Below, in pieces: positions 3,327-51,081 of a stretch of 64,000 nucleotides of DNA. The notes beneath the pieces are model-generated. The model searched no databases, had not been told where the DNA came from, and saw only the letters and a list, made by a program, of their open reading frames with translations. The position numbers and the translations under genes are program-made. Source of the DNA: Alphaproteobacteria bacterium (lineage in GTDB: Bacteria; Pseudomonadota; Alphaproteobacteria; UBA7879; UBA5542). Position 1 is the stretch's first letter. Each line of letters opens with the position of its first letter. Location of the stretch: positions 81,417 through 145,416 of the forward strand of contig JBAWWO010000002.1 of NCBI GenBank assembly GCA_037146715.1, read 5' to 3'.

Positions 3327-3953
3327 ATGATAAGAACTGTCTCTTTTTTTAGTTTGATGTTATTATTTATTTCAACATATGGGGCTCCGTCAGAAAGCAT
3401 TATTAAGAACTGGGCCAATGAAGAATATATGCGCCCTTATTATGGGACTATATCTGAATTTCGAAAACTTATAGAGCAAGCCTCTCCAAAATCTAAAAAT
3501 GGCTTCATAAACCACCCCACGCCAGATTTTGATAATTTTAGATCCCCAAAATATTTATTTCTAGAGATCGCAAAAGGAGATTACATTACTGGATTTTTCA
3601 CGCCTTTTGGAAAAATAACTCTTATGCCCAGTGGGGCTCTAGATGATTGGATAGAGTACACACAAAAAATTATGAGCCAAGCAGCCAATCAATGGGAATT
3701 AGTTGATGTGACGTCTCATGTTAAGTGGTACGAGTTTTCTGGCGGCAAAGATGGGGAATCTATGCAAAAACCAGTGACTCTTAAGCAAAAAAGTGCAAAA
3801 CTTTTTCTGATAAAATCTTTTAAGGGACATCAATTTATCAAAAGCCCTGACAAAGAATTTCTATTATTTTCTAGCGTATCTCTTTCGGACGAGTGCAGCG
3901 AGAAAGACACGGCTCTATTCCACAAACTTTCTAGTGGCAGGAATTGTTTCTAA
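3327..3953 (+). CDS. hypothetical exported protein
   Basis: 208-aa ORF with a Sec-like signal peptide (MIRTVSFFSLMLLFISTYGAPS). No motif recognised. Looks AT-richer than its neighbours by eye. Confidence 0.5.
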   Translation: MIRTVSFFSLMLLFISTYGAPSESIIKNWANEEYMRPYYGTISEFRKLIEQASPKSKNGFINHPTPDFDNFRSPKYLFLEIAKGDYITGFFTPFGKITLMPSGALDDWIEYTQKIMSQAANQWELVDVTSHVKWYEFSGGKDGESMQKPVTLKQKSAKLFLIKSFKGHQFIKSPDKEFLLFSSVSLSDECSEKDTALFHKLSSGRNCF

Positions 3954-14924: not shown

Positions 14925-14974
14925 GATTATGAAACATACTCTATAGTCATCCCATGATTCAACATTTTTGTGAA
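14912..14974 (+). repeat. left copy of a 63-bp direct repeat (promoter region plus first 7 codons, MIQHFCE)
   Basis: 62 of 63 nt are identical to 16044-16106 by manual alignment. Confidence 0.9.
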
Positions 14975-14986
14975 AAAGCAAATATC

Positions 14987-15958
14987 ATGATAAAAACAAA
15001 ATCTAGTTTAGTTGTATACCAATCTAAGAATGGCGCTTTAGAGTTAAAAACAGACTCTCAATATAATACGATTTGGTTAACTCAAGAGCAACTTGCGTCT
15101 TTATTTGACGTGCAGCGTCAGGCGATTTCAAAGCATCTAGGAAATATTTTTTCTTCAGGAGAACTAAACGAAAATTCAGTGTGTTCCAAAATGGAACATA
15201 CTGCCAAAGATGGAAAAACATATAAAGTAAACCACTACAATCTTGATGCAGCACTTAGTGTTGGGTATCGGGTGAATTCAAAAAGCGCTACACATTTTCG
15301 CCAATGGGCGACCAAAACCCTAAGAAACCATATTGTTGAAGGATATACTATCAACCGCGATCGTATCAAAGAAAATTATGAACAATTCATGAAAGCAATC
15401 GCAGATGTTAAAAGTTTGCTCCCTTCTGCTTCACCTGTTGATAATGTGAGTATTTTAGAGCTTATTAGTCTGTTTGCTGATACCTGGATATCATTAGATG
15501 CCTATGATAGAGATCAACTTTCTATAACAGGAATCACTAAGAAAAAAGTTTCATTAACATCTGATAAACTTGATAAGGCTTTGCAAAAACTAAAGTATGC
15601 TTTGGTTCAAAAAGGTGAAGCGACAGAATTGTTTGGTGCCGAACGAACAAAGAATTCTATCGAAGGAATAGTTGGCAATGTAATGCAGAGCGTTGGAGAT
15701 CAAGATGTGTATCCTAGCATAGAAGAAAAAGCAGCACATCTGCTCTACTTCATTGTTAAAAATCACCCATTCTTGGATGGAAATAAAAGATCTGGAGCCT
15801 ATGCATTTATATGGTTCTTACAACAAGCTAAGGTTTTAGATAGATCTCGCATAACGCCCCCAGCGCTCACTGCCTTAACTTTATTGATCGCACAAAGTGA
15901 TGCCAAGGATAAAAATAAAATGGTTGCATTGGTGTGCACTACCCTATCAAAAAAGTAG
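14987..15958 (+). CDS. RhuM-family N-terminal domain fused to a Doc-type Fic domain (death-on-curing-like toxin)
   Basis: The N-terminal part (VVYQSKNGALELK...IWLTQEQLASLFDV.RQAISKHL...GYRVNS..ATHFRQWAT) is RhuM-like. The C-terminal HPFLDGNKR (15764-15790) is the Doc variant of the Fic motif. An upstream in-frame ATG at 14954 lies in the duplicated esterase 5-prime end. Confidence 0.85.
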   Translation: MIKTKSSLVVYQSKNGALELKTDSQYNTIWLTQEQLASLFDVQRQAISKHLGNIFSSGELNENSVCSKMEHTAKDGKTYKVNHYNLDAALSVGYRVNSKSATHFRQWATKTLRNHIVEGYTINRDRIKENYEQFMKAIADVKSLLPSASPVDNVSILELISLFADTWISLDAYDRDQLSITGITKKKVSLTSDKLDKALQKLKYALVQKGEATELFGAERTKNSIEGIVGNVMQSVGDQDVYPSIEEKAAHLLYFIVKNHPFLDGNKRSGAYAFIWFLQQAKVLDRSRITPPALTALTLLIAQSDAKDKNKMVALVCTTLSKK

Positions 15959-22571: not shown

Positions 22572-23111
22572 TTATTCATCGTCTTCTGTAGACGCAGCAG
22601 AATTTAAAATGGGTGAGTTTTCTTTTTCTAGGGTTTCTTTTTCTTCTTCAGGGTCAATCACTTTTCCCCGCTTCTTTTTTTTCCAAAAGAAAATTTGATC
22701 TTTAATTTTTTGTTCCAGGGTAGGTTCATGATGAGCTTCTTGGTCTATCGTCTGCCGGATTCCTTCTTGTTTTTTATTGACCCCAATTTTTTCTAGAAGC
22801 ATTTGTTCGCTTTTAACTTCTAAATCTGGTTTCCGGTCTATCTTTTTTGAAGCTGGCATTGTTTTGGGATGGGAAACAGTTGAATCTGACACGATAATGT
22901 TCATGGCTTTTTGACTGATAGATTGTTGTTGGGGGCGCCTAATGCCCAGCTTTGGATCTTGCAAAACAATCGTCGTGGGCATTTCAAGCCCTTCATTTCT
23001 TAGGGATTCATACTCATTAGGACCTTCTCGATTCAAACCCATATGTTCACGGACGGAAGAACAGCCGGCAAGAATAAGGCACAGGGCAAAACTTATTATT
23101 GGATATCTCAT
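22572..23111 (-). CDS. lipoprotein, DUF3035/BamF-like
   Basis: Lipobox LILAGCSS, followed by G..REGPNEY...L.MP....L.DPK.G.RRPQ, which resembles alphaproteobacterial DUF3035 proteins. Confidence 0.6.
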   Translation of the reverse strand: MRYPIISFALCLILAGCSSVREHMGLNREGPNEYESLRNEGLEMPTTIVLQDPKLGIRRPQQQSISQKAMNIIVSDSTVSHPKTMPASKKIDRKPDLEVKSEQMLLEKIGVNKKQEGIRQTIDQEAHHEPTLEQKIKDQIFFWKKKKRGKVIDPEEEKETLEKENSPILNSAASTEDDE

Positions 23112-23123
23112 TTCAAACTAACG

Positions 23124-24281
23124 TTACTTTTGTCCCACCTTAGTTTTCGTCCACATCCGTGTCAACTCTCTTTCGAAGCTTAAAGTTAAAACTTCATTAA
23201 TTCTAAAGTTTTCAAAGACCATTTTGGGATAAAGGAGGGGATTATTTCGTAAGGACGGGGGTAAATGCTTCAAAGCAGCATCATTAGCAATGGGGGACAA
23301 AAGATATTTAATATTTCTGGCTGCAATATCTCCCCTCATCATAAAGTCTAAAAACTTGTAGGCATTTTCCAGATGGGGCGCCCCACGGGGAATCACAAAT
23401 AAATCACACCAAAAACCTTGATACTCTTTGGGGATAAAGAACTCTAGCTGAACAGGTTTTCTGGAAGATTTGGCTTCAACCTGGGCCCGCAACGCTTCCC
23501 CAGACCAAGTCTGCATCAAACAAACTTCCCCATTCACCAAATCATTAATCATGCGTCCCGCATTAGCTGTGAAATTTTTAACATGGGGACGCATTTTTTT
23601 TAAGATTTTACGGGCTGTTTCAATTTGAGAAAAATCCCCATAATTCGGCTGAATTCCTTTGTAGTACAAAACGGATTCCACTAAATCTTGGGGGTAATCA
23701 AGCAGGGTTACCCCACACTTGGAAAGTTTTTTGATTTGTTCTTCGTCATAAACAAAAGACAAACTATCCGGCGGCAGTTTTTGATAAGGGAAAATCTTTT
23801 TTATCTTGTTGGCGTCATAAGCAAACCCTGTCACCCCCCAAGTAAAGGGAATGCCATAGGCATTGTCTTCATCTAACGCTTCCAAAAGACTTAGAATTGT
23901 TTCATCTAAATTGCCCCAGTTCTTCAACTTAGATTTATCAAGGGGTGTGAAAATTTTATCTTTTAGCAAAACCTGTCGGCCGAAGTAAGGGGTTGCCGAT
24001 GGCATTACAATATCGTACCCGGATTTTCCAGTAAGTAATTTGGCTTCTAAAATTTCATCACTTTCATAATAATCCATATGGACAGTGATGCCCGTTTCTT
24101 TTTCAAAATCTTTGATAGTTTCTGGATCAAAGGTATGCATCCAGGTATAAATCAAAAGCACCTTTTCTTTTTTTTCAGAATCAGCAAAGGGATTATAGAA
24201 AACAATTAAAACTAAAAGAGCTCCTATCAAAAGGCTCCAAAGGAAGAGGACGGGTTTTTTCACTATTCTTGGATGCTCCAT
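23124..24281 (-). CDS. PotD/PotF-like periplasmic polyamine-binding protein homologue with N-terminal membrane anchor
   Basis: Solute-binding family 1 pattern (VLLIYTWMHTFDPETIKDFEKETGITV...YDIVMPS...). The N-terminus KKPVLFLWSLLIGALLVLIVFY looks like an uncleaved TM anchor. The ATG overlaps the tssA 3-prime end by 19 nt. Confidence 0.8.
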   Translation of the reverse strand: MEHPRIVKKPVLFLWSLLIGALLVLIVFYNPFADSEKKEKVLLIYTWMHTFDPETIKDFEKETGITVHMDYYESDEILEAKLLTGKSGYDIVMPSATPYFGRQVLLKDKIFTPLDKSKLKNWGNLDETILSLLEALDEDNAYGIPFTWGVTGFAYDANKIKKIFPYQKLPPDSLSFVYDEEQIKKLSKCGVTLLDYPQDLVESVLYYKGIQPNYGDFSQIETARKILKKMRPHVKNFTANAGRMINDLVNGEVCLMQTWSGEALRAQVEAKSSRKPVQLEFFIPKEYQGFWCDLFVIPRGAPHLENAYKFLDFMMRGDIAARNIKYLLSPIANDAALKHLPPSLRNNPLLYPKMVFENFRINEVLTLSFERELTRMWTKTKVGQK

Positions 24282-25414
24282 AGGGGTTTAGCTGGTTCTT
24301 TAGAAGCATTCGAAGAAGCTGCATTTATAACCTGGTTATTTCCTAAGGGAGCATTGCCGGCAACGCCCAGAAGGCGACGAAGATCCGTCAGCGCATTGCC
24401 ATCGGCCACCATTTCTTTCAGCAAGTCCTCAAAGGGCAAGTTCCCCCACCTAACTGCCCGCTTAATCAAATAGGGGGCGGGACTATGGGGATCTAGTTGT
24501 GATAAATACTCAGCAGCCTTTTCTATCATGGCATAGGCCTCGGCCCGACCGTGAATCACATCATCCAGGGATGAAGGTTTATCCGCAGATACAGGCTCTA
24601 ATTGGATTGTTTCCGTTGTTTTTTTAGCATTTTCTTTTGCTTGCTCTTCTGCACGGCGCTCTGTCAAAATCATTTCCAAATACTGATTAAATTGATCCAG
24701 TTTCTCCTGAATTCTATACAATGATGGGCTTGATTTTTCCAGTTTTTGATCTAAAAAAGTTTGTAAAGTTTTGATTGTTTCTTTTGTTTGATCCACAGAT
24801 TCTTTAAACTGAGCAAAAAAAGCTGTGTCTGTTTTTTTAACACTTGCCTTTAAATCTAGTGCTTTCTTTTCACGACTGACCTGATTGGCTGCATTCGGAG
24901 CTACCTTTGTATCCGTTGTATAATGGGTATCGATATAGGCAGAAAAACTATAGACTAAAGTATCCTTATCGGTTGGGGCTGTGATGATAATTCTGTTCAA
25001 GTATTCCGATAGTTTTTCATTGATCCAATTAAAGGGTCCCACCCGATATTCCAGATCATCTGGGCCAATAGCGGGGTAAGCAATATCCCAATATTTTTCA
25101 GAAAGTTTCAGCAAAAGTTCAAACCCCTTTTGCAAACCTTCTATATTGTATAGAAACATCCAAGACCGAATCAACCACGAAGCAATCTGCAAGTCTTTTG
25201 ACTGGTCTGTCAGAATACCAGTGCACAGGGTTTCAACCTTTTTCCAGTCAGCGGTTTTCAAATCCTTAACCCAAACGCCTTGGGGCAGGTCTAAATCTTC
25301 GCGAGATGCCTCTTGAATATCATCATAGATCACATCATATTTCAGATCTTTTCCTTGGGGATCTTTCCCCGGAATATCTTTTAAATAGACATTAAGATCA
25401 TCAATGGGGTTCAT
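24263..25414 (-). CDS. tssA: type VI secretion protein TssA (ImpA N-terminal domain)
   Basis: GKDLKYDVIYDDIQEA...LPQGVW...ADWKKVETLC..IL...SKDLQIASWL matches ImpA_N. ATGA overlap with the tssM stop. Confidence 0.8.
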   Translation of the reverse strand: MNPIDDLNVYLKDIPGKDPQGKDLKYDVIYDDIQEASREDLDLPQGVWVKDLKTADWKKVETLCTGILTDQSKDLQIASWLIRSWMFLYNIEGLQKGFELLLKLSEKYWDIAYPAIGPDDLEYRVGPFNWINEKLSEYLNRIIITAPTDKDTLVYSFSAYIDTHYTTDTKVAPNAANQVSREKKALDLKASVKKTDTAFFAQFKESVDQTKETIKTLQTFLDQKLEKSSPSLYRIQEKLDQFNQYLEMILTERRAEEQAKENAKKTTETIQLEPVSADKPSSLDDVIHGRAEAYAMIEKAAEYLSQLDPHSPAPYLIKRAVRWGNLPFEDLLKEMVADGNALTDLRRLLGVAGNAPLGNNQVINAASSNASKEPAKPLWSIQE

Positions 25415-28400
25415 AGAACTCCTTCCCGTAAGACTGGCGCAGAAGTGGGGAATTTGGGAATCTTGAAATCAATTGCTGTTGTGCCCATGGTATCAACAGG
25501 CACAACCTGTACATACAATTTAGCATTTGTAGCTGCTGGCCCATTCGGGGCAGGCGCCAGTGGAATTGTAAATCCAAGGGTGACATCGTTAATAGAGGAC
25601 CCGCCATCTTTTGCAGACACCAGATGAAGCATCATAGCCCTTAGCAGTGCCCAAGTGCCGTCATAGACAAAAAGACTTCTTTTTTCCATGGGGATCAGGG
25701 CCGGATCTCTGGGATCTTTTGTCGCAAAAACAGGAAAATTGGGCATCCATTCAAAACCAAAGGATATGGGGGTGCCCAGTTCATAGCGAATGGTGTTAGC
25801 ATTCCCATTTTCTTTTAAGCTTAATACTTTATCATTGTTAATAAATGCCCAGTCAGCCAAGCGATCCGCCAGCAAAGATTTAGCCTTGTTTTCGTTAAAT
25901 TTAAGGATAAAGCTAAGACCAGGGGCACCATCTTTTTTAATAGGGGCAAAGTATTTATCAAAGAAAGTTTTGATCTCACGCATGTTGGCCATAAATTGCT
26001 TAGAGTGAGACCAAAAATGTCCAGGTTTTGCAACAGCATCAATTGATGCAATAACATCAGGGGTTAACAAGTCTAGCTCTTTAAAGAAACCATTCAGAAC
26101 ATCATATGACACATCTGAATCTGAATTAGGATCTTTTGAAACAATAGCAACGAAGGGGAATGAATTCGCTAAGTTTGCATTGAAATAATCAGAGACTTTT
26201 TTATACTGGGCAATCCCCTTTTCAGCGGCTAACTGCTGACACCTTTTATACATACTCTTCATGATTAAGTTGCGTTTTTGCAGGAAGAAATCTCCTGTAG
26301 GGGCATTCATAACAGCTGGATCTAACAGGGTAAAACAGTTGTCGTAGGTAATTTTATTGCCATCTTCTTCCAAGAATTTTTCCAGTACTTTCATGGACCC
26401 TGTTGTTTTGCCCTTGTCATAGGCCGCTGCTTCATCAAGCAATCCGCCCCACCGGGTTACAACCTTAATTTGATCAATGGAAAGCCGGAAAGAATCTGAC
26501 TTCAGAAAACTTACAACAGGCGATGCGTGCCGCAAAGCTAAACTCATCACTCGGGCGCTCTGATTGGTGAAATAGCTGATCATTTCTGTTTGATCAGAAA
26601 GATTATAGGCGCCCAAAAGTCCATTGGCTTCCCCATTCCACCGTTTGAAATCAGGATCAACCGGTTCATAGAAATCACTATTTGTTAGGGCCTGATCTAT
26701 TGTTTCGAGGCTACTGTACATTTGGGTGAATAATAAGCTCTTAAGTCGTGCATAGGTGGCGCGCGCGCCAATATCATCTAACGTCTTCAAAAGCTTTACA
26801 AACAAGGGTCCTGTTTCGCTAATGTTATTGGCTTGCACCTGAGATGCATTGTCAGCCTGACTCCCCCAATTTTGGGAGGGGACTTCATAAAAAGTTTGGG
26901 CCCGTTCCAACATAACTTCAATATTAGTCTGAAGTTGCTCTTGTCCAACCAGCCGCAAGACATCCTGCAAATTAACAGGATAAGAAGAAAGATCCATCTC
27001 AACAAAGGTTCGGTAATTTTCAATTAAGGCCAACGCATTTCGAACGCTATTCGGGTCCCAATACAAAAATTGTCCATCGGGAATTCTGTCAATAAACTTA
27101 CTGCCTGATGCTTTTTGCATAAAAGGTTGATCCAGGAAAGTATTTAGCCCTTTTTCTAGTTTTAATAGCCCCTCAGAGGGAGTCAAAGAATTAGTAGCTG
27201 AAGACCAGGTTAAGAAATACCCAGTTAAAGGAGACCCATAACTTCTTAAATAGGTGGCTGATTTTTGATAAAGCTTTTCTGCAGTGTCAGAAATTTTTCT
27301 ATAAACTGGCTCAGTAAAAATAGGAATACTTTTTATGGTATCCATCAATTTTTGATATCTGGAACCCGGGTCAAAGACTGGGTTTGTAAGCCATCTTCCC
27401 CCCGCATTGGTAATGAATGACAGAACATCTTTTATTTCTACCAAGCTGTTTCGGAAACTATCCAAATCCGGCACACCACGCCCTTCAACTCTCTCTAAAG
27501 TTTTTTGCAATTTATAGATCAGGGCTGCGTTATATTCGGGATCAAGAACACGTTTCAAGAAATTGTTATACAGTTCATAGAGTCTTTTTTCAGCAAACAA
27601 ATTATAACGATCCAGATAAAAAGGCTTACAAGAACTATCAGAAATCAATCCCTGCAGAAAAGTTTCACTAGAAGGTGTCAAAGATTTTTTAAGATTGTAT
27701 CCGTCATACAAATAGGCCGTGAATTGGGCGAACAAATCTATCTTCTTCATGAAAGCCTGGGCATTATAGTCAATGGTCATTGTATGTAGCTTTTGTAAGG
27801 CCTTTACGTATCCTTCTAGCAGTAAAAATTCCGGCGTTTCCGTGGGGCTTAAAACTGTTTTTTTGTCCAGGGGCATGGATGGCATGGCAAGGGGCGTTAT
27901 CAAAAGACGTTGGGCCTTTATGTCCAGGTTGCTGGCTATACGATCCCCGATAAATTTGTCATAGAAAAACTGGCAAATTTCTTTCAGATTATAATCTGCA
28001 ACAAGGGCCCAGGTGGGGATGTAAGTTCGCGTATTTCCAACTTGGACTATAAGATCTAAAATGCTTTGAGCCTGGGAAATATTTTCAACCCCTTGGCTGG
28101 TAGAATTTAAGTTTTCAAGGGAATGGAGCACATTCACCATAGATGGCTTCAGTTGATCAACAGCATTCGATACATTTTTTTGGACCCAGTAAGTTCCTAA
28201 GAAACCCAAAACAAGGGTAGAAAAAATGCCAACACGCCCGATATTTAAAGTACGGTTAGCAGAAAGCAAAAATCTTTTAAAGGGCGCAGCAACACCCACT
28301 TCCTGAAAAATCTTTTTGTCAAAAAGATCCTTTAAAAACAGATGAGAAAATTCTGATGAGCCAGGCACTTCTTCCTGTTGCCCGGTCGCATAAATTCCTC

Positions 28401-29451
28401 GCAGAATAAAGTGATCCCTATAATCTTCTTCTTTAAAAATTGCATTCAAATACGTCTGAAGGCCTGATTCAATCTGGGCAAAATTATCTGGAAAAACCAT
28501 AATGTCGTCCTGATAAACAACGGCTTCCTTTTTGGCAAATATTTTGAGTAAACTTTTCAGCAGAAAATCTTGGACGGAAGAAAAAGCTTCCTTGATCCAC
28601 GCGGAATTATAGGAAAGATCGGTTGTATAGGGATTAGACCAACCGAAAATTTCTTCTAAAGATTTTAGGGAAAGTTCCTTTGAAAACCCTTTGAATCCAC
28701 CCACCAAATCACACTTAGTCAGAAGCACATAAATGGGCAATTTTAGCCCCAGCATATCTTCTGTCTGAATTAATTTTTCTGAAAGCTCTTGCCCTTTTTT
28801 GGCCAACTGGTCTGCAGACAAAACATCAGGCCCCAAGAAATAAGAGCTGGGAACTGTTAGAATAATACCGTCTAAGGGGCGTGCTGGGCGATATCTTTTT
28901 AAGGCCAGCAAAAAATGATGCCACCGGTCCTTGTGAAGCGTTTCCCCGTTCACTACAGACCCCTTCAGATCAATCACAATACCATGTTCGTAGAACCACC
29001 ATTGCATTAAGGGATGATCAAAAGGCATGCCAAAATTAGGGCTGATTAAGGGGTTGGGCAACTTTGCTTGAGCAAGCAAACTAGACTTACCAGATCCCGT
29101 ATCTCCAACCATAACAAACCACGGTAATTTATAAGAATAGTCTTTGCCGTCAATATGGGCAGCCAATGCCTTTTTAGCTGCCCGAATGGAATCATAAAAG
29201 GCCCCAATAGGGCGAATTCTTAAAACATCTAAAACTTGCTCAAGAAATTGGAAGACAGGTTGCCAAAAAAGATTATTGTCACTGTCCCAACCCAATTTCT
29301 TAAACAAGGGAGAACTTTTTAGGCCAAGACCTTCAAACTGTTTCTTTAAAGAAAATCCTGAAAAATAGACAATGACAAAGAAAATCATGCCCACCAAAAG
29401 GAAGATGGTCAGTAAAAAATAGGGCAAAGAATCAGTTAAATGTTCCAGCAT
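25411..29451 (-). CDS. tssM: type VI secretion membrane protein TssM (IcmF family), 1346 aa
   Basis: N-terminal TM segment, Walker A VMVGDTGSGKSSLL, a second TM segment (IFSTLVLGFLGTYWV), and a long periplasmic IcmF-like region. Confidence 0.85.
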   Translation of the reverse strand: MLEHLTDSLPYFLLTIFLLVGMIFFVIVYFSGFSLKKQFEGLGLKSSPLFKKLGWDSDNNLFWQPVFQFLEQVLDVLRIRPIGAFYDSIRAAKKALAAHIDGKDYSYKLPWFVMVGDTGSGKSSLLAQAKLPNPLISPNFGMPFDHPLMQWWFYEHGIVIDLKGSVVNGETLHKDRWHHFLLALKRYRPARPLDGIILTVPSSYFLGPDVLSADQLAKKGQELSEKLIQTEDMLGLKLPIYVLLTKCDLVGGFKGFSKELSLKSLEEIFGWSNPYTTDLSYNSAWIKEAFSSVQDFLLKSLLKIFAKKEAVVYQDDIMVFPDNFAQIESGLQTYLNAIFKEEDYRDHFILRGIYATGQQEEVPGSSEFSHLFLKDLFDKKIFQEVGVAAPFKRFLLSANRTLNIGRVGIFSTLVLGFLGTYWVQKNVSNAVDQLKPSMVNVLHSLENLNSTSQGVENISQAQSILDLIVQVGNTRTYIPTWALVADYNLKEICQFFYDKFIGDRIASNLDIKAQRLLITPLAMPSMPLDKKTVLSPTETPEFLLLEGYVKALQKLHTMTIDYNAQAFMKKIDLFAQFTAYLYDGYNLKKSLTPSSETFLQGLISDSSCKPFYLDRYNLFAEKRLYELYNNFLKRVLDPEYNAALIYKLQKTLERVEGRGVPDLDSFRNSLVEIKDVLSFITNAGGRWLTNPVFDPGSRYQKLMDTIKSIPIFTEPVYRKISDTAEKLYQKSATYLRSYGSPLTGYFLTWSSATNSLTPSEGLLKLEKGLNTFLDQPFMQKASGSKFIDRIPDGQFLYWDPNSVRNALALIENYRTFVEMDLSSYPVNLQDVLRLVGQEQLQTNIEVMLERAQTFYEVPSQNWGSQADNASQVQANNISETGPLFVKLLKTLDDIGARATYARLKSLLFTQMYSSLETIDQALTNSDFYEPVDPDFKRWNGEANGLLGAYNLSDQTEMISYFTNQSARVMSLALRHASPVVSFLKSDSFRLSIDQIKVVTRWGGLLDEAAAYDKGKTTGSMKVLEKFLEEDGNKITYDNCFTLLDPAVMNAPTGDFFLQKRNLIMKSMYKRCQQLAAEKGIAQYKKVSDYFNANLANSFPFVAIVSKDPNSDSDVSYDVLNGFFKELDLLTPDVIASIDAVAKPGHFWSHSKQFMANMREIKTFFDKYFAPIKKDGAPGLSFILKFNENKAKSLLADRLADWAFINNDKVLSLKENGNANTIRYELGTPISFGFEWMPNFPVFATKDPRDPALIPMEKRSLFVYDGTWALLRAMMLHLVSAKDGGSSINDVTLGFTIPLAPAPNGPAATNAKLYVQVVPVDTMGTTAIDFKIPKFPTSAPVLREGVL

Positions 29452-30235
29452 TATTTTTAATCCACATGTTAAAACTCTTTACAAGGCCCAAAATTTCCCG
29501 GGTTTCTATAAACCAAATCAGCACCATAACAATCAGAAAAAATCCTCCCACAAGGCCCCATCCCAAATACCAGGGGCGCAAATTAATAATTTCAGATGAA
29601 TCCCGCTGGTCTAAAGTATGCATATAGGCCTCTTCAAAAAGGGGTAGCCCTTCCCGACGACCGTCCGGAATATCATAGGTAATCATATCATAAAGCTTCT
29701 GCCGATATTGATTTAAAATAGAGGCTGAATTTTCCGCCCGGTACTTACCCTGAAAACCCAATCCAAGACCCATCAAATAAATCACAGCTAAATCTAAAGC
29801 TGAAACATCCCGACCTTGTAAAAAGGTCTCTAAATTTTTAAAAAACTTATCACCCGCATCTTGGGTCCCATAAAGACGAGATTCCAATAAATTATCTTGC
29901 CATTCTAATTTACCCTTCCAGGGAAGGTTTAAAAAAATTTCATCTGCCAAGGAAACCATTACATATTGGGCCTCCTCATAGTAACGGGCCGCATAACCCC
30001 CGCCCTGAATTTCAATCAATCGATATTGAGCCTTTAAGGTTTTTTCCAAACGATTTAGAATTTTACCAGCAAGCGATTGGGATGTTTTTTCTGACAGATT
30101 GCCCTCTAAAGACGCCTCTTCCTCGGCAGAAATTGATCCATCGTTCAAAGCTAAGTGTTTCAATAGAATCAATTCGTCATAGAAAGACCTAAAATTCTGC
30201 ACCAGAACAGATTTCATATACCTTTCTTGCGTCAT
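29432..30235 (-). CDS. tssL: type VI secretion protein TssL (DotU family), no peptidoglycan-binding extension
   Basis: DotU pattern ...MVSLADEIFLN.PW......W....LES.LYGT.DAGDKFF.NLE. There is a single C-terminal TM and the protein ends about 25 aa later. Confidence 0.8.
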   Translation of the reverse strand: MTQERYMKSVLVQNFRSFYDELILLKHLALNDGSISAEEEASLEGNLSEKTSQSLAGKILNRLEKTLKAQYRLIEIQGGGYAARYYEEAQYVMVSLADEIFLNLPWKGKLEWQDNLLESRLYGTQDAGDKFFKNLETFLQGRDVSALDLAVIYLMGLGLGFQGKYRAENSASILNQYRQKLYDMITYDIPDGRREGLPLFEEAYMHTLDQRDSSEIINLRPWYLGWGLVGGFFLIVMVLIWFIETREILGLVKSFNMWIKNNAGTFN

Positions 30236-30242
30236 GGATTAC

Positions 30243-31583
30243 CTATCCTGCTGTATATAAAACAATTTCTTCTGGCCTGCTGTTTTCTGTATCAGACGGA
30301 TTCAAGATCTGCAGAGTTTCTTCAGCCTTAATAAATTTCTCATCAACCAAAACTTTAACAAGCAACTGACGATTAGTAGCCAACAGTCCCATTTCTGAAA
30401 CCTGGTCAACAACTTCCCTGATGGGACCTAATATTCTTTTTTCCTTGGCTTCCTCAAGGGCGGAATCGCAAGCGATAATGGCCCCATTTAGCCAATGGGC
30501 TATGGCCGAAGGTGATGCATCCACCCCCAATTTAATGCCCAAAATCAGATAATCTGTATCCAACCAATCTTTTCTAAGTTTACGTTCAAAAACACGACCA
30601 CTTTTTGTGAATGGCAAAGAAATTGAGGGGCTTTTAACCATTTCAATAATCTTTTCAATAAAATTCACAACGGGATCAAAGGTTGATTTTAAATCATTGT
30701 GGTCATAGGGATCAAAGACAGGCGGAATTTGGCCCCGATGGAGTGCACAATAGGTTCCTGCCGCCACACAAAGCTCTTTATAAACTTCAAAAGGATGACA
30801 TTTTTCAGAAAAATACAGTGCTTCTAAAACAACCACTCGCCCCACAATAATATTATAAATACGGTCATAGTATTCCAGAATAGATGCCGTGTCTTGGGTC
30901 ATCAAACTTTGAAGGCGCTCCCCCAAGAAAGTCGTTCGTTTTCTTAAATTCTTGATCAACCGCCCCAGATATTCCCCGATAATGTTTTGTTGTTGTACGC
31001 TGGTAAAGGGCGGAATAAAGTCTGTTTTTGCAAAAGCATCGTCTTCGAACTTAACCTGCATCAAGGGGAATCCAGAATAGCGAGAAGGCAAATTGTCCCC
31101 CGCCACCAGAAATGCTTTCAAAGAAAGGCGTGGCATAGTAATGGCCCCATCTCCTGTGTTTTCGTCAACGATAGGGTTTGATTCGATGGAATCATATCGG
31201 CAAGGCTGCTGCTCTGTATTTGCAGCATCTTCTTGACGCTCGACAACCGCCAAATAGATGGTAGTGGGTTTCAACAGCAGATCATCTTTCATTCCGGAAA
31301 TATCCAGTTCAATTTTCTGTTTGGATCCAGTTGCTTTCTCAACAACGCTGCCATCTGGCATCATAGCCAAAATTTTGTTGACTCGAATGATACCGCTTAA
31401 CAACAAGGCCTCATCAATTTCCACATGATGAATGCCCCAGTACCAAGGAGTACTAATAGTCAGATAGCATAAGGAAAGCTGCTGAATTTCATGACGCATT
31501 TGCTGGTAATGGTGGGGATACAAAAGCTGCCCTTCGTACCATTGCACCATGTCTTGAATTTTGAAGTTATACTTTTCTTCCAT
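30243..31583 (-). CDS. tssK: type VI secretion baseplate protein TssK
   Basis: N-terminal VQWYEGQLLYPHHYQQ matches the V.W.EG..L.PQHFQQ TssK signature. The length of 446 aa is typical. Confidence 0.85.
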   Translation of the reverse strand: MEEKYNFKIQDMVQWYEGQLLYPHHYQQMRHEIQQLSLCYLTISTPWYWGIHHVEIDEALLLSGIIRVNKILAMMPDGSVVEKATGSKQKIELDISGMKDDLLLKPTTIYLAVVERQEDAANTEQQPCRYDSIESNPIVDENTGDGAITMPRLSLKAFLVAGDNLPSRYSGFPLMQVKFEDDAFAKTDFIPPFTSVQQQNIIGEYLGRLIKNLRKRTTFLGERLQSLMTQDTASILEYYDRIYNIIVGRVVVLEALYFSEKCHPFEVYKELCVAAGTYCALHRGQIPPVFDPYDHNDLKSTFDPVVNFIEKIIEMVKSPSISLPFTKSGRVFERKLRKDWLDTDYLILGIKLGVDASPSAIAHWLNGAIIACDSALEEAKEKRILGPIREVVDQVSEMGLLATNRQLLVKVLVDEKFIKAEETLQILNPSDTENSRPEEIVLYTAG

Positions 31584-31706
31584 TAGATCCCTGAAAGTCC
31601 TGTTATTTTATATTTAAATTCACCCTTAGTCTAACGTTCCTATGAAAATAACTCAAGCACATTCCTTTTACCTTGTACAGGTTCATGTCGCAAAAATTAA
31701 ACGGTA

Positions 31707-36440: not shown

Positions 36441-37829
36441 ATGCTTCTTCAAATTCACGAACCTGGCCAAACACCTCTTCCCCATGATCAGCAACAAGTA
36501 GCGATTGGAATTGATTTGGGAACTACCAATTCTGTGGTAGCCATTGCCCGTGATCATAAAGCTGAAATTATAAAAATAGAGGGGCATTCTCTTGTACCAT
36601 CCATCACCTTTTATGGTGAACCCAAATCTGTGGGGCGGGCCGCTGAAAAAGCTGGAAAGACCTCATCAGATTTGATGCTGAAATCTGTGAAACGGTTGTT
36701 TGAAGATGCCCCTTTGGTTGGCTTAATAGGCCAAATTACCCCCCTGAAAGCAGCCACTGATATTCTGATTTATTTAAAAGAGCAAGCAGAAAAATCTTTG
36801 GGTAAAAAAGTAACCAAAGCGGTGATTACGGTGCCTGCTTATTTCTCAGAAGGTGCTCGCACCATGACTCGAAAAGCAGCCACCTTGGCAGGTTTTGAAG
36901 TTCTGCGCCTGTTGAATGAACCAACGGCTGCTGCTTTAGCTTATCATTTAGATGAAGGAAAAGAAGGGCATTATGTCGTCTATGATTTGGGAGGCGGGAC
37001 GTTTGATGTATCTGTTCTGCGTCTTGAAAAAGGAATCTTTCAGGTTTTGGCTGTGGGTGGAGATACAGGATTGGGAGGGGATGATTTTGATAAACTCATC
37101 CAAGATTTTTTCCAAGATCATGTCTCAATTGATCAAGCAAAACAGATTAAAGAATATCTTTCTGAAAATCCTGTATGGCAAGAAAAACAAGGATCTATAA
37201 GTCAATCTGACTTTGAAAAAATAGTCAGTCCTTTGGTTGAAAAAACTCTTAAGATTGTGGAAAAAACACTGCGGGATGCCAAGGTTGAAGATATTCAAAC
37301 TATTCAGCAAATTGTATGCGTGGGAGGAATGACCCGCATGCCCCTGATTCAACACAGTTTGGAAAAGTTATTTAAAAAGAAACCTCTGGCAATTTTGAAC
37401 CCAGATGAAGCTGTAGCTCTGGGGGCAGCCTTACAAGCTGAAGCCCTGATGACAGGTATGGGAAAATTGCTTATTGACGTAACACCTTTTTCTCTTGGCC
37501 TTGAAACCATGGGAGGTTTTGTGGAAAAACTGATTCCTCGAAATACAGCGATTCCCTTTTCCGTAACTCAGGAATTTACAACCCATCAAGATGATCAAAA
37601 ATCTATGTCCATTCATGTGCTTCAGGGAGAAAGCGATCGCCTTCAAGACTGCAGGTCTCTCGCAAAATTTAGCTTCACAAATTTGCCGCCCTTACCCGCA
37701 AAAACAGCCCGTGTGGTCATTACGTTCACCCTGGATGCGGATGGTATTCTGACTGTGTCAGCCCAAGAAAAAATTACAGGGCAAAAGCAGACCGTTCATG
37801 TGGGGTTACAGAACTTAACTAATTCCTGA
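36441..37829 (+). CDS. hscA: Hsp70-type chaperone HscA, short form (462 aa)
   Basis: IGIDLGTTNSVVA, DLGGGTFDVS and the beta-sandwich substrate domain are present. The protein ends before a helical lid. Confidence 0.85.
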   Translation: MLLQIHEPGQTPLPHDQQQVAIGIDLGTTNSVVAIARDHKAEIIKIEGHSLVPSITFYGEPKSVGRAAEKAGKTSSDLMLKSVKRLFEDAPLVGLIGQITPLKAATDILIYLKEQAEKSLGKKVTKAVITVPAYFSEGARTMTRKAATLAGFEVLRLLNEPTAAALAYHLDEGKEGHYVVYDLGGGTFDVSVLRLEKGIFQVLAVGGDTGLGGDDFDKLIQDFFQDHVSIDQAKQIKEYLSENPVWQEKQGSISQSDFEKIVSPLVEKTLKIVEKTLRDAKVEDIQTIQQIVCVGGMTRMPLIQHSLEKLFKKKPLAILNPDEAVALGAALQAEALMTGMGKLLIDVTPFSLGLETMGGFVEKLIPRNTAIPFSVTQEFTTHQDDQKSMSIHVLQGESDRLQDCRSLAKFSFTNLPPLPAKTARVVITFTLDADGILTVSAQEKITGQKQTVHVGLQNLTNS

Positions 37830-41927: not shown

Positions 41928-43400
41928 TTAGTTAGCCGAATTTGGCATCATTTTTTCTTTATATTCTTGCACAAGTTCTTTCAGCAAGGGCTTCATGTAT
42001 TTTGTTTGGTACTTCAAAAGTTTAAGAGGATCCTTCCCAAAAACAGTTGGAACCAACAATACATCTATCAGTTTTTCTTTGGTCCCAAAAGTCTTAAGAA
42101 GAGAATTTTTCAAAATAACAAAAACATCCTTCAATTTCTCTGCATTAATTTTATCATCCTCACTTTTAGCATAAGCATCAATATAACCCTTCAAGAAAGG
42201 CTTTATAATCAGTTGATGCCATTCTTCCGTTGGAATATCACCCTTTGCATATTGATGTTTTTTTCTATTGATAGCCGCAAAAATATAAAACTTTCTAAGG
42301 TCTGCCCCTACGTATCTTGGCTTATTTAATGCTAGGGCCATTGTTTCAGCATCAATAAAGGTAACCGCATTGTGATTTTTTGTATCAATGAAAATGTTAT
42401 TCGAATGCATATCCCCATGAACAGCCGTTGAAAAGCCAGTCAAGTGACCGTTTTTTTCTGTCATGCCAAATAGATGAAACTTACCCAACTGATGACCAAA
42501 ATCATACATTATTTTGGGAAGATCTTTTTTCTGTTTCATATAATTTATTCTTTTTTCCATGTCTTTGTCAGAAGGTGTGGCAACAGAAAAGGCACCGTAG
42601 TTGTCAGCGAAACTTTGCAGTATTTTTATAAGTTGTTCCCCGGGAGCTGCGGGAAGAACTGCTACTGTATGGAGTTTTCCATTTGGATCTCTGTAAGTTG
42701 AAAAAATAACATTTAACGCAATAAAAGGCATTCCCGTAAATGCATTTGGTCCATCAGGATTCAAAATGAACTCTTTAAGGGAGCTTTTTTTAATAATTCC
42801 AATGTTGCTAGTTTCACCAATGCTCTTCTTTAATTCTTTAACAATATATTTAACATCGCCCTTAACATCTTTTACAATAAACAATTGGAGAGTTTGAGCA
42901 CCTCCACCCCCTACAGCATAAGAAGCATAATTATCGTCAAAGTCTTTTATTTTTCCCTTCTTTTTTAAGATCCTTAAAACAGTTGTAATATAGTCTGCAT
43001 TCGTTACATCAGCTGCCTTTACAACAGAAACTTCGTTTACAAGGCTTTCTAGGATAGTTGGAAAACTACTTTTCTCTTCCAAGCCAAATGATTGCCGAAT
43101 ATTATCTATAATTTCTACAGTGCATTTCTGATCTTCTTTACAGACTGAAATACTGTTGTTTTCATAACTGAAGGTTCCATCTTTTTTCAAAGAATGTTTG
43201 ACTAAACAGCACTTACAAGAATTTAGCTGCATATCTTCTGACCATTTCCAATTAGAGGCTTTACAACTAGTGCTACGAGTCATAATTTTTTGAACACCCC
43301 CAATTTCAACAACCGCTGTACCAGAGCGGGTTATTCTAAAAGAATGGGCATTGAAAAAAAATGTTGCGAAGGCAACTAAAATAGCCAAAAATGAAGTCAT
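41928..43400 (-). CDS. exported protein-kinase-like (APH/choline-kinase fold) protein with Cys-rich N-domain
   Basis: AGGAGA lies 5 nt before the ATG. Signal peptide MTSFLAILVAFATFFFNAHS. There are 7 Cys within about 50 aa. GGGGAQ loop, YIVKELK lysine, HGDMHSNNIFID catalytic loop (42384-42419) and FIDAE. Confidence 0.7.
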   Translation of the reverse strand: MTSFLAILVAFATFFFNAHSFRITRSGTAVVEIGGVQKIMTRSTSCKASNWKWSEDMQLNSCKCCLVKHSLKKDGTFSYENNSISVCKEDQKCTVEIIDNIRQSFGLEEKSSFPTILESLVNEVSVVKAADVTNADYITTVLRILKKKGKIKDFDDNYASYAVGGGGAQTLQLFIVKDVKGDVKYIVKELKKSIGETSNIGIIKKSSLKEFILNPDGPNAFTGMPFIALNVIFSTYRDPNGKLHTVAVLPAAPGEQLIKILQSFADNYGAFSVATPSDKDMEKRINYMKQKKDLPKIMYDFGHQLGKFHLFGMTEKNGHLTGFSTAVHGDMHSNNIFIDTKNHNAVTFIDAETMALALNKPRYVGADLRKFYIFAAINRKKHQYAKGDIPTEEWHQLIIKPFLKGYIDAYAKSEDDKINAEKLKDVFVILKNSLLKTFGTKEKLIDVLLVPTVFGKDPLKLLKYQTKYMKPLLKELVQEYKEKMMPNSAN

Positions 43401-43443
43401 GGTACTCTCCTGATTATTATTATTTAGTATCATAATAGAAAAA

Positions 43444-49599: not shown

Positions 49600-51081
49600 A
49601 TGAAATTTTTAATGTTAATCAGCTTTAGTATCATGATGATCTTTTGCTGCCCCTCTTTTGGTGCACATCAAGAAGTAAAAGATTTAACCCCAACTCAAAA
49701 ACTCTTTTTACTAGAAAAAGTCAGAGATGTTGCTGAGTTCCAGAACCTAGAACGAGCTGGTTTCGAAAAAGTTACTCAGTTTATTGCAGAGACTTTAGGG
49801 GAAAAATACGGCCCAACTTTTTGCCCAATGGATCCAAGCTCGTGGGATGAAACTTTATTTTCTTTAATTCGAACTCGACATTATTACAAAGGCATGCCCA
49901 CTTTAGTATCAGAAAATTTTTTCAAATATGATGCTGAAAAATTGCAAAATGGTTTATTTCTGCAAAGAATGCAGGTGCTTTTTTTTCTAGATCGATTAGT
50001 TGCTAATTCTTTGTGTAAAACGACATTTGAAGATATGTGGAAAGATGGGGCAGCTTTTGGAAATTATCCCCCCCACATAATCGCAATCTTAGAGCAAGAC
50101 TTTCAATTATATGGGGGAAATTTGTACAAGGAAAATTATGGAAAAAACAATACGGTTAATACCTTGTTCAAAATCCACAACACTTTCTTTGAAAAAGCTT
50201 TTGATATTTATAGTCTTTTTGCCCCACCAATCACCTTGGAATCTTTTTATACTGAAATTTCACAAGTGGTCAACTGGCGTGGGTGGATCATTCATAATGA
50301 TGTAAATGCTATCTTTAAGGGACTGGGAGAATTGCGCTCATTCCGAGATAGTCCATTAAAAAAACTCCATTTCTTTTCAACAACAAGTCGTGGATTTTGG
50401 CTTCCACAAGAAATCGAGGAAGATTCGGCAGAATTTACTATTGCGATTGAATATAATTTCCCCTATCCCCTTTTAAGTTTAGAACAGAATAGATTTATTA
50501 TTACTAAATCAGTAAAAAAGGATTTCAGAGCATTTGTTTACACTAATTATTCTGCAAATGTCGAAAAATATCTTGTTACGAGGGACCAAAATTTTGCCTC
50601 AAAAAAAGCGGGGATAAATTTTATGAATTCTCCAACAGAAAGAATGGAATTTCTAAGAGATATTTCCAGATTTAGAGACCCCTTGCCTCAATTCACTTAT
50701 GCAAATGCAAATTTTAATGGAATGGCGGGAGAGCAAGATTTCGTAGCAGCAAGAGCTTATCACAAACTTTCTGCAGATCAGGGATTTATGCCAGCTCAAT
50801 TTTCTTATGCGCTGATGTGTAGAAATGGTGAAGGTGGTGACCAAGATCTGCCAGAAGCACGGATGTATTTTAAGCTTGCTGCTGATCAAGAAGAAATGGA
50901 ATCTGAAGTTTGCTATGCCAATATGTGTTATAGAGGCGAAGGAGGTGATCGAAACCTTAAAGAAGCCATTACTTACTATGAACGCGCAGTATCTAAAGGA
51001 AATGCCGCATTTAAGAAAGTTTTAGAGGCTGCTCGATTAGAGCTAAAATCTAATCAATCAGAAATTTCAGAAACTGTTTAG
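49600..51081 (+). CDS. exported protein with C-terminal Sel1-like (TPR-type) repeats
   Basis: Signal peptide MKFLMLISFSIMMIFCCPSFGA. At least three Sel1-type units (A..YHKLSADQGFMPAQFSYALMCRNGEGGDQDLPEARMYFKLAADQ..., ...YANMCYRGEGGDRNLKEAITYYERAVSKGN). Confidence 0.8.
   Translation: MKFLMLISFSIMMIFCCPSFGAHQEVKDLTPTQKLFLLEKVRDVAEFQNLERAGFEKVTQFIAETLGEKYGPTFCPMDPSSWDETLFSLIRTRHYYKGMPTLVSENFFKYDAEKLQNGLFLQRMQVLFFLDRLVANSLCKTTFEDMWKDGAAFGNYPPHIIAILEQDFQLYGGNLYKENYGKNNTVNTLFKIHNTFFEKAFDIYSLFAPPITLESFYTEISQVVNWRGWIIHNDVNAIFKGLGELRSFRDSPLKKLHFFSTTSRGFWLPQEIEEDSAEFTIAIEYNFPYPLLSLEQNRFIITKSVKKDFRAFVYTNYSANVEKYLVTRDQNFASKKAGINFMNSPTERMEFLRDISRFRDPLPQFTYANANFNGMAGEQDFVAARAYHKLSADQGFMPAQFSYALMCRNGEGGDQDLPEARMYFKLAADQEEMESEVCYANMCYRGEGGDRNLKEAITYYERAVSKGNAAFKKVLEAARLELKSNQSEISETV

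What the first reader, a model, noticed from the sequence alone, without database searches (positions are those of the whole stretch)
24263..31583. Stand-alone tssK-tssL-tssM-tssA module: a type VI secretion membrane and baseplate core with no sheath, tube, spike, ClpV or TssJ genes in the window
Four consecutive minus-strand genes carry clear T6SS signatures: the TssK N-terminal WYEGQLLYPHHYQQ, a DotU-type TssL, an IcmF-type TssM with Walker A GDTGSGKS, and a TssA ImpA_N domain. They are tightly coupled. There is a 7-nt gap between K and L, a 20-nt overlap between L and M, and an ATGA overlap between M and A. The 64 kb window has no recognisable TssB/C, Hcp, VgrG, PAAR, TssE/F/G or ClpV. Neighbours on both sides are housekeeping genes: an alpha/beta hydrolase and the isc operon upstream, and pgi and mutL downstream. 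TssL has no peptidoglycan-binding domain, no TssJ-like gene is adjacent, and TssM at 1346 aa is long for the family. Two readings are possible. The apparatus may be split across the genome in an unusual way. Alternatively, the membrane complex has been retained or repurposed without a contractile sheath.
Basis: partly seen in the sequence, partly recalled or inferred. Interest (0 to 1): 0.75.

Follow-up and report, generated by a model that had tools for sequence, protein, structure and literature searches.

The report
Known split T6SS locus of Holosporales
The four genes are a real, intact type VI secretion membrane and baseplate module, but it is almost certainly one of several scattered pieces of a complete secretion system, an arrangement already published for this group of protist-associated Alphaproteobacteria, so the finding is ordinary.

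Summary
Four tightly coupled minus-strand genes encode TssK, TssL, TssM and TssA, and no other T6SS core gene lies in the 64 kb window. The interpretation mostly dissolves.

- **Relatives.** The closest TssM relatives are Holosporaceae and uncultured alphaproteobacterial MAGs (39-63% identity), several with the same extended order K-L-M-A-SBP-DUF3035-pgi-mutL.
- **Literature.** Midha et al. [quoted passage not shown] All are transcribed in Ca. Bodocaedibacter. George et al. and a 2025 review had already noted the poorly detectable TssJ and Hcp.
- **Contiguous versions.** In five Desulfobacterales loci and one soil contig, the same unusual TssM subfamily lies inside a contiguous lipoprotein-K-L-M-A-B-C-Hcp-E-F-G cluster. 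This membrane module therefore belongs to a contractile machine.

I could not inspect the rest of this genome.

One feature remains of modest interest. This TssM subfamily has a roughly 900-residue periplasmic region with no detectable similarity to canonical TssM, apart from a weak C2-like C-terminal domain.

The parts
30243..31583 (-). tssK, the baseplate subunit that docks onto the membrane complex (446 aa)
   Evidence: PF05936 at 4e-38. TIGR03353 equivalog scores 195 bits against a cut-off of 100. It is 74% identical to the orthologue in L005 and 50-58% identical to those in Holosporaceae MAG loci. Its length equals Ca. Bodocaedibacter CPBP_00934 (1341 nt).
29432..30235 (-). tssL, a DotU-family inner-membrane protein (267 aa) with a single C-terminal TM helix and no peptidoglycan-binding extension
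   Evidence: PF09850 at 6e-30. TIGR03349 scores 90.1 against 89.95. The TM helix lies at residues 225-243, followed by only about 24 residues.
25411..29451 (-). tssM variant (1346 aa). It has a TM helix at 12-30, a cytoplasmic Walker-A NTPase / IcmF-related_N domain, a second weaker hydrophobic segment around 405-424, and a roughly 920-aa non-canonical periplasmic region that ends in a C2-like beta-sandwich.
   Evidence: Only PF14331 matches. TIGR03348 falls below its cut-off. hhalign against canonical TssM aligns only residues 82-513. AF2 models have pLDDT 85.8 and 90.0. Foldseek finds no TssM and only weak C2 hits. The subfamily runs 1319-1528 aa.
24263..25414 (-). tssA (383 aa), an ImpA_N-domain protein that coordinates baseplate and sheath assembly in characterised systems
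   Evidence: PF06812 at 7e-34. TIGR03363 matches full length at 263.7 bits against 160.85.
31605..31633 (-). Weak sigma-70-like promoter candidate (TAGACT-17-TAAAAT) in the 123-nt gap upstream of tssK
   Evidence: The number of promoter-like sites in the region is not above the shuffled expectation, so this is only a candidate.
22572..24281 (-). Context genes, probably co-transcribed but probably not T6SS parts: a PotF/PotD-like solute-binding protein (23124-24281, overlapping tssA by 19 nt) and a DUF3035 lipoprotein (22572-23111)
   Evidence: The pair follows tssA in L001, L007, L009 and L015 (SBP only in L020) but is absent after tssA in L002, L003, L006, L010, L011 and L013 and in all non-alphaproteobacterial clusters.

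Best explanation
The region is the tssK-tssL-tssM-tssA locus of the dispersed type VI secretion system typical of Holosporales-type, protist-associated Alphaproteobacteria.

The four genes encode the following parts:
- the inner-membrane anchor, TssL plus the N-terminal part of TssM;
- the envelope-spanning part of TssM;
- the baseplate connector, TssK;
- the assembly coordinator, TssA.

The sheath (TssB/C), an Hcp-like tube, the baseplate wedge (TssE/F/G) and the spike (VgrG, PAAR-like) are expected elsewhere in the same genome. There they form separate small loci embedded among housekeeping genes.

Shown here: the gene identities, their intactness and conservation, the synteny with Holosporaceae MAGs, and physical linkage of the same TssM subfamily to a full contractile gene set in other phyla. 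Taken from the literature: the split layout and its transcription in related complete genomes. Inferred: that this particular genome also carries the other loci, and that the system fires like a normal T6SS.
For: **Identity of the four genes.**

**Relatives and synteny.**
- The nearest TssM relatives in 185,579 species genomes are Holosporaceae and uncultured alphaproteobacterial MAGs at 39-63% identity.
- K-L-M-A is intact and colinear in 10 of 12 distinct alphaproteobacterial loci. The extended order K-L-M-A-SBP-DUF3035-pgi-mutL is shared with L001, L007, L009 and L015.
- Conservation of the T6SS proteins in L001 (TssK 55%, TssM 44%, TssA 48%) is similar to that of the neighbouring PGI (54%) and MutL (55%). 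This argues for purifying selection.
- GC content of the module (0.40-0.415) matches the window.

**Literature.**
- Its Supplementary Table 3 gives locus tags: 00933-00937 for lipoprotein-K-L-M-A, 00985-987 for B-C-Hcp-like, 00125-126 for F-G, 00258 for E, and 00353/355 for VgrG. Each has RNA-seq reads.
- The T6SS is conserved in almost all Holosporales genomes.

**Contiguous versions of the same module.** In Desulfobacterales loci L014, L016-L019 and L022, and in soil contig L024, the same K-L-M-A block with the same TssM variant is contiguous with TssB-TssC-Hcp-TssE-TssF-TssG and VgrG.
Against: - The rest of this genome could not be examined. The window's contig is 147 kb and is not retrievable. 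The presence of sheath, tube and spike loci in this organism is therefore inferred, not shown.
- No named, cultured Holosporales protein appeared among the homologues. Taxonomic placement rests on MAG labels and synteny.
- The published arrangement is stated for three families that may not include this lineage. The MAG relatives are labelled Holosporaceae.
- No TssJ-like lipoprotein gene precedes tssK here, unlike in Bodocaedibacter (CPBP_00933) and the Desulfobacterales clusters.
- No tblastn hit to sheath or baseplate genes was found within 10 kb of the module in any alphaproteobacterial locus. This fits dispersal but equally fits absence.
Confidence: 0.85

Rival explanations
1. The membrane complex and TssK/TssA are kept in a genome that has lost the sheath, tube and spike. 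They serve a new, non-contractile function such as an envelope conduit or scaffold.
For: No other T6SS core gene was found in 64 kb of window or within 10 kb of the module in any of the 12 alphaproteobacterial loci. The TssM periplasmic region is non-canonical. Published surveys report that Hcp and TssJ are undetectable in Holosporaceae.
Against: TssK and TssA are only known as adaptors to the baseplate and sheath. Every sequenced Holosporales T6SS described retains TssB/C, TssE/F/G and VgrG elsewhere. The same TssM subfamily is embedded in complete contractile clusters in other phyla.
Confidence: 0.06
2. The module is a decaying paralogue or remnant of a T6SS that is being lost during genome reduction.
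For: Reduced symbiont genomes lose secretion systems stepwise. In one relative (L015, CP060261.1) TssM is broken into six ORFs. L003 lacks tssK next to L-M-A.
Against: All four window ORFs are full length with translationally coupled junctions. They pass curated family cut-offs, except TssM, which fails for subfamily-wide reasons. Identity to orthologues is as high as for the neighbouring housekeeping genes. In L015 the neighbouring pgi and DUF3035 genes are broken too, which suggests assembly frameshifts rather than gene-specific decay.
Confidence: 0.04
3. The module is a recently acquired horizontal-transfer island carrying a partial T6SS.
For: The same TssM subfamily occurs in distant phyla: Desulfobacterota, a soil contig of unknown taxon (L024), an Edaphobacter MAG, and a Rokubacteria TssK hit. 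This implies ancient transfers of the whole system.
Against: GC content is indistinguishable from the flanks. No mobile-element genes are adjacent. The position next to SBP-DUF3035-pgi-mutL is conserved in relatives with only 44-45% TssM identity, so the insertion is old and vertically inherited.
Confidence: 0.03

Closest known systems
Dispersed T6SS of Holosporales (Ca. Bodocaedibacter vickermanii, Paracaedibacteraceae, Caedimonadaceae; Cytomitobacter and Nesciobacter)
   Same: Both have the same four-gene block in the same order, flanked by housekeeping genes, with the other core genes not adjacent. TssK has the same length (446 aa). TssM is long (4272 nt in Bodocaedibacter, 4041 nt here). 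TssJ and Hcp are hard to detect.
   Different: Bodocaedibacter has a 'T6SS membrane lipoprotein' gene (CPBP_00933) immediately upstream of tssK. Here the upstream gene is an alpha/beta hydrolase, and no such lipoprotein was found in the window. Sequence identity to Bodocaedibacter could not be measured because its proteins were not available to the tools.
Contiguous T6SS clusters with the same TssM subfamily in Desulfobacterales (L014, L016-L019, L022) and a soil contig (L024)
   Same: K-L-M-A is orthologous (TssK 32-34%, TssM 24-26%, TssA 34-39% identity). The gene order is the same. The TssM architecture is the same, with only PF14331 detected and a length of 1370-1490 aa.
   Different: There the block is preceded by a conserved lipoprotein of about 185 aa and followed directly by TssB-TssC-Hcp-TssE-TssF-TssG, with VgrG nearby. 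In the window all of these are missing locally.
Canonical T6SSi membrane complex TssJ-TssL-TssM (for example EAEC Sci-1)
   Same: It shares a DotU-type TssL and a TssM with an N-terminal cytoplasmic NTPase-like domain (hhalign probability 100 over residues 82-513), and it couples to TssK.
   Different: The PF06761 and PF21070 periplasmic domains are not detected. PF06744 is seen in only 5 of 28 family members. There is no sequence or Foldseek match to solved TssM structures. The protein is about 150-200 aa longer, apparently has two rather than three TM segments, and has no TssJ gene nearby.
Acinetobacter TssJ-less non-canonical membrane complex (TsmK, TssM GS-linker)
   Same: It sets a precedent that a functional contractile T6SS can lack TssJ and compensate with lineage-specific envelope proteins and TssM changes (PMC10564176).
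   Different: Acinetobacter TssM keeps the canonical periplasmic domains. Its compensating proteins (TsmK, TslA, TagX) are Acinetobacter-specific according to that paper. Its T6SS genes are described there as one operon rather than dispersed. I did not search for TsmK, TslA or TagX homologues here.

Membership tests
Type VI secretion system (T6SSi) core components | TssK baseplate subunit matching the curated equivalog model | tested here: met
   TIGR03353 scores 195.1 bits against a cut-off of 100; PF05936 at 4e-38.
Type VI secretion system (T6SSi) core components | TssL/DotU inner-membrane protein with a C-terminal TM anchor | tested here: met
   TIGR03349 scores 90.1 against 89.95, a marginal pass. 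PF09850 at 6e-30. The TM helix lies at 225-243.
Type VI secretion system (T6SSi) core components | Full-length TssM: N-terminal IcmF-related domain plus the periplasmic IcmF-related, helical and IcmF_C domains | tested here: not met
   Only PF14331 is detected. TIGR03348 scores 166 bits against a cut-off of 388 and covers profile positions 93-489 of 1168. hhalign aligns only the N-terminal third. IcmF_C is detectable in 5 of 28 subfamily members but not in the window protein. The protein is a TssM by N-terminal homology and gene context, but not a canonical TssM.
Type VI secretion system (T6SSi) core components | TssA with an ImpA_N domain | tested here: met
   TIGR03363 scores 263.7 against 160.85 and matches full length; PF06812 at 7e-34.
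Type VI secretion system (T6SSi) core components | Contractile sheath TssB/C, Hcp, TssE/F/G and VgrG in the same genome | not testable with these tools
   They are absent from the 64-kb window. They are present next to orthologous K-L-M-A in other phyla and elsewhere in published Holosporales genomes.
Type VI secretion system (T6SSi) core components | TssJ outer-membrane lipoprotein | tested here: not met
   No PF12790 hit in the window. The window has no homologue of the Desulfobacterales lipoprotein or of the Cys-rich protein found upstream of tssK in relatives. The only nearby lipoprotein is DUF3035, which is not linked to the module outside one sub-clade. This test covers the window only.
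Holosporales dispersed T6SS arrangement (Midha et al. 2021) | A tssK-tssL-tssM-tssA block in this order, separated from the other core genes and flanked by housekeeping genes | tested here: met
   compared with the published statement.
Holosporales dispersed T6SS arrangement (Midha et al. 2021) | The host genome belongs to Holosporales | tested here: inconclusive
   The best genome matches are MAGs labelled Holosporaceae or Alphaproteobacteria, with shared extended synteny. No marker-gene phylogeny was made, and no named cultured species appeared among the hits.
Holosporales dispersed T6SS arrangement (Midha et al. 2021) | Separate [tssB-tssC-hcp], [tssG-tssF] and [ywqK-vgrG] loci elsewhere in the genome | not testable with these tools
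   The genome beyond the window is unavailable. A TssC homologue search returned only Desulfobacterales-like sequences and gave no link to alphaproteobacterial contigs.

The most novel reading that the evidence does not exclude
TssM proteins of this subfamily occur in Holosporales-type Alphaproteobacteria, Desulfobacterales, and soil and groundwater MAGs. They carry a roughly 900-residue periplasmic region that is not detectably related to the canonical TssM periplasmic domains. In the non-alphaproteobacterial clusters they are paired with their own small lipoprotein, or with SPOR-domain proteins, instead of TssJ. This could define a structurally distinct, so far uncharacterised T6SS membrane-complex architecture. 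If so, it may explain why surveys call the Holosporales T6SS 'modified' and fail to find TssJ.
Probability: 0.35. Interest if true: 0.45.

Novelty: already known. Interest (0 to 1): 0.18.

Why it matters
A stand-alone K-L-M-A block in this kind of bacterium is the published norm, not a sheath-less or repurposed membrane complex.

The case is useful as a caution. In reduced symbiont genomes, secretion systems are routinely scattered, so local absence of partner genes says nothing about their absence from the genome.

The one feature that may deserve specialist attention is the divergent periplasmic part of this TssM subfamily and its lineage-specific lipoprotein partners. These bear on how T6SS membrane complexes cross the outer membrane without a recognisable TssJ.

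Tried and rejected
1. **Scan with the wide alignment.** A genome-contig scan with the 28-sequence alignment A1 failed because no stretch was conserved enough. I repeated it with the 13 closest sequences.
3. **Recovering the source contig.** An exact look-up of the window's TssK returned no record. The later homologue search shows the protein sits on a 147,139-bp contig with the source withheld.
4. **Naming the organisms.** The listing of cluster members gave only generic MAG labels.
5. **Structure of the TssM periplasmic region.** The models are confident. Foldseek against the PDB gave no match at E<=0.001 and no TssM chain, only weak C2-domain similarity. A profile search against PDB sequences also found no TssM.
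6. **DUF3035 lipoprotein or the PotF-like SBP as TssJ substitutes.** I rejected this. They accompany the module in only one alphaproteobacterial sub-clade and are absent from all complete clusters.
7. **Recent horizontal acquisition.** I rejected this on GC content and conserved synteny.
8. **Promoter and terminator scan.** Site counts were no higher than in shuffled sequence.
Full report
**1. What is in the sequence**

The window carries four consecutive minus-strand ORFs at exactly the reported coordinates:
- 30243-31583 (446 aa)
- 29432-30235 (267 aa)
- 25411-29451 (1346 aa)
- 24263-25414 (383 aa)

There is a 7-nt gap between K and L, a 20-nt overlap between L and M, and an ATGA overlap between M and A. 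The quoted motifs are present: WYEGQLLYPHHYQQ in TssK, and GDTGSGKS at TssM residues 116-123.

Profile searches identify the proteins as follows:

| Protein | Pfam | NCBIfam | Note |
|---|---|---|---|
| TssK | PF05936, 4e-38 | TIGR03353, 195 bits vs cut-off 100 | |
| TssL | PF09850, 6e-30 | TIGR03349, 90.1 vs 89.95 | DotU family |
| TssA | PF06812, 7e-34 | TIGR03363, 264 vs 161 | full-length match |
| TssM | PF14331 only, 1e-43 | TIGR03348, 166 vs 388 (fails) | only profile positions 93-489 of 1168 covered |

TssL has a single TM helix at residues 225-243 with about 24 residues after it, so it has no peptidoglycan-binding domain.

**2. The surroundings**

Pfam scans of essentially every ORF of 100 aa or more in the window found no TssB, TssC, Hcp, VgrG, PAAR, TssE/F/G, ClpV or TssJ. 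A tblastn search with the VgrG, TssB, TssC, Hcp, TssE, TssF and TssG proteins of a related cluster gave no hit at E<=1.

Upstream lie an alpha/beta hydrolase and a divergently transcribed isc operon: IscR, two cysteine desulfurases, IscU, IscA, HscB and HscA.

One is a PotF/PotD-like solute-binding protein at 23124-24281, which overlaps tssA by 19 nt. The other is a DUF3035 lipoprotein at 22572-23111. After these come pgi, mutL and a NUDIX gene, all packed with overlaps or gaps of 12 nt or less.

A weak promoter-like site lies in the 123-nt gap before tssK. The best minus-strand terminator follows the NUDIX gene. Site counts are not above shuffled expectation. GC content of the module (0.40-0.415) equals that of its flanks.

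**3. Relatives and synteny**

The TssM query retrieves a distinct subfamily of 1319-1528-aa proteins in which only PF14331 is detected. Canonical TssMs, which carry PF06761, PF21070 and PF06744, match only over the N-terminal 20% or so.

A scan of one genome per species (185,579 species) returned 18 loci. They fall into two groups:
- Holosporaceae and uncultured alphaproteobacterial MAGs at 39-63% identity (33% for L012), including a complete 1.02-Mb Holosporaceae chromosome, CP060261.1.
- A second clade in Desulfobacterales at 25-27% identity.

BLASTP of all ORFs in the loci shows K-L-M-A intact and colinear in 10 of 12 distinct alphaproteobacterial loci. The two exceptions are L003, which lacks tssK, and L015, where tssM is fragmented.

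Four loci (L001, L007, L009, L015) share the longer order K-L-M-A-SBP-DUF3035-pgi-mutL with the window. In other relatives the four genes sit between quite different housekeeping genes, for example rpe and lpxC in L002. One lineage, L003, has only L-M-A next to mutL.

In L001 the T6SS proteins are about as conserved as the housekeeping neighbours:
- TssK 55%, TssM 44%, TssA 48%
- PGI 54%, MutL 55%

This level of conservation speaks for purifying selection and against decay.

**4. The same module inside complete clusters**

In Desulfobacterales loci L014, L016-L019 and L022, the orthologous K-L-M-A block carries the same TssM architecture. It is preceded by a conserved lipoprotein of about 185 aa with a lipobox. 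It is followed directly by TssB, TssC, Hcp, TssE, TssF and TssG, with VgrG upstream.

Other contexts vary:
- Soil contig L024 has the same contiguous order, ending with VgrG.
- L025 has VgrG and PAAR upstream of K-L-M-A but no sheath genes downstream.
- L023 has a SPOR-domain protein upstream.

The variant TssM therefore belongs to a bona fide contractile T6SS lineage. The block structure [K-L-M-A][B-C-Hcp][E-F-G] is ancestral, and the blocks have been separated in some lineages.

**5. Literature**

Midha et al. [quoted passage not shown]

Their Supplementary Table 3 lists the Ca. Bodocaedibacter genes. All have RNA-seq reads except 01201.

| Locus tag (CPBP_) | Product |
|---|---|
| 00933 | T6SS membrane lipoprotein |
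| 00934 | TssK (1341 nt, the same length as here) |
| 00935 | TssL |
| 00936 | TssM (4272 nt) |
| 00937 | TssA |
| 00985-00987 | TssB, TssC, Hcp-like |
| 00125-00126 | TssF, TssG |
| 00258 | TssE |
| 00353 / 00355 | VgrG |
| 01201 | DUF4280 |

Other papers agree:
- George et al. (bioRxiv 10.1101/719211) report that Holosporaceae endosymbionts retain most canonical T6SS components, while Hcp and TssJ are not detected. They call this a 'modified T6SS'.
- A 2025 preprint repeats that it is 'conserved throughout Holosporales'.
- TssJ-less functional T6SSs with lineage-specific membrane complexes are documented in Acinetobacter (PMC10564176).

**6. Most likely function**

The four proteins form the membrane complex and its cytoplasmic adaptors.
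- TssL and the two-TM, Walker-A-containing N-terminal part of TssM anchor the system in the inner membrane.
- The roughly 920-residue periplasmic part of TssM spans the envelope.
- TssK docks the TssE/F/G-VgrG baseplate.
- TssA coordinates tube and sheath polymerisation.

These roles follow from established knowledge of T6SSi. They are inferred here from homology and context, not shown. That this genome carries the sheath, wedge and spike loci elsewhere is inferred from the relatives and the literature. I could not test it, because the window's 147-kb contig and genome are not retrievable. A TssC-based attempt to link contigs also failed.

**7. What is unusual: the TssM periplasmic region**

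Several tests fail to connect this region to canonical TssM:
- None of 28 subfamily members hits PF06761 or PF21070. Only 5 hit IcmF_C, described as 'C2-like' (best E-value 7e-6), and the window protein is not among them.
- Profile-profile comparison with 15 canonical TssMs aligns only window residues 82-513.
- A subfamily profile finds no TssM among PDB sequences.

The AlphaFold2 models are confident. For residues 425-1346, pLDDT is 85.8 and pTM 0.48. For residues 1050-1346, pLDDT is 90.0 and pTM 0.85. They show a long helical region followed by a beta-sandwich.

Foldseek against the PDB finds no TssM chain. It returns only weak C2-domain similarities, such as 4xoh at E=0.0098 and 2nq3. This is consistent with a very divergent IcmF_C-like end domain but does not prove it.

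Only one strong N-terminal TM segment (12-30) and a weaker one (about 405-424) are predicted, against three in canonical TssM. The canonical figure is from my own knowledge.

Candidate outer-membrane partners differ between lineages:
- a 185-aa lipoprotein in Desulfobacterales;
- a Cys-rich secreted protein of about 185 aa upstream of tssK in L001, L007, L009, L015 and L013;
- SPOR-domain proteins in L023 and L025.

None of these has a homologue in the window.

**8. Verdict**

Its significance is low.

I give about 0.85 to that explanation. Sheath-less repurposing gets about 0.06, decay about 0.04 and recent transfer about 0.03.

The residual novelty is the uncharacterised periplasmic architecture of this TssM subfamily. 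If real, it is a variant of a known kind.

Noticed in passing
window 49600-54748 (+): A Sel1-repeat protein (49600-51081) is followed by an MshL/PilQ-like secretin (51173-52978; PF00263 at 1e-18; TIGR02519 at 176 bits, below its cut-off). Three overlapping ORFs without any Pfam hit come next (52975-53625, 53612-54385, 54401-54748). This looks like the reduced type IV pilus / T2SS remnant reported for Holosporales.
   Followed up: partly
window 58135-64000 (-): A giant ORF of at least 1941 aa runs off the window end. It is very rich in T, G, S and N, with dozens of 'TTTGxQxYxGxxTL'-type repeats and a Pro/Asp-rich, then charged, C-terminus. It has no Pfam or PDB sequence hit. It looks like a beta-helical surface adhesin or a possible secreted effector.
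   Followed up: partly
L015 9974-14043 (CP060261.1, complete Holosporaceae chromosome): The TssM orthologue is split into six ORFs. The neighbouring DUF3035 and pgi genes are also truncated. The cause is either frameshift errors in a long-read assembly or widespread pseudogenisation.
   Followed up: no
L001 7180-7779; L007 7244-7798; L009 7002-7574; L015 7117-7698; L013 6105-6872: A conserved Cys-rich protein of about 185 aa with a signal peptide (motif NLGYCPK...C..SLA.AL.V.TNCPL) sits immediately upstream of tssK in several alphaproteobacterial relatives. It has no Pfam hit and no homologue in the window. It may be a lineage-specific periplasmic partner of the membrane complex.
   Followed up: partly
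L019 7132-7689 and equivalents in L014, L016, L017, L018, L021, L022; L024 6726-7298: A conserved lipoprotein of about 185 aa with a lipobox lies directly upstream of tssK in every Desulfobacterales cluster. A 190-aa protein with no Pfam hit occupies the same position in the soil contig L024; neither its homology nor a lipobox was checked. The Desulfobacterales protein has no Pfam or NCBIfam hit, including no hit to TssJ/SciN. It occupies the position that tssJ takes in canonical clusters.
   Followed up: partly
L023 5867-6886; L025 5980-6984: SPOR-domain (peptidoglycan-binding) proteins are encoded two genes upstream of tssK in two members of the same T6SS lineage. They could supply the peptidoglycan anchoring that the short TssL lacks.
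   Followed up: no
window 36441-37829 (+): The HscA-like Hsp70 of the isc operon is only 462 aa and matches HSP70 profile positions up to about 497 of 599. It ends 2 nt before the convergent UDP-glucose dehydrogenase gene. It may be a C-terminally truncated HscA.
   Followed up: no
window 3327-3953 (+) and 14954-15958 (+): Two possible toxin or effector-type genes. A 208-aa ORF has a weak Tox-REase-5 hit (E=0.003). A 334-aa protein carries RhuM and Fic domains.
   Followed up: no
window 41928-43433 (-): A 501-aa ORF with no Pfam or NCBIfam hit lies in the lowest-GC stretch of the window (0.37-0.39), between rmuC and a DsbA-like thioredoxin gene.
   Followed up: no
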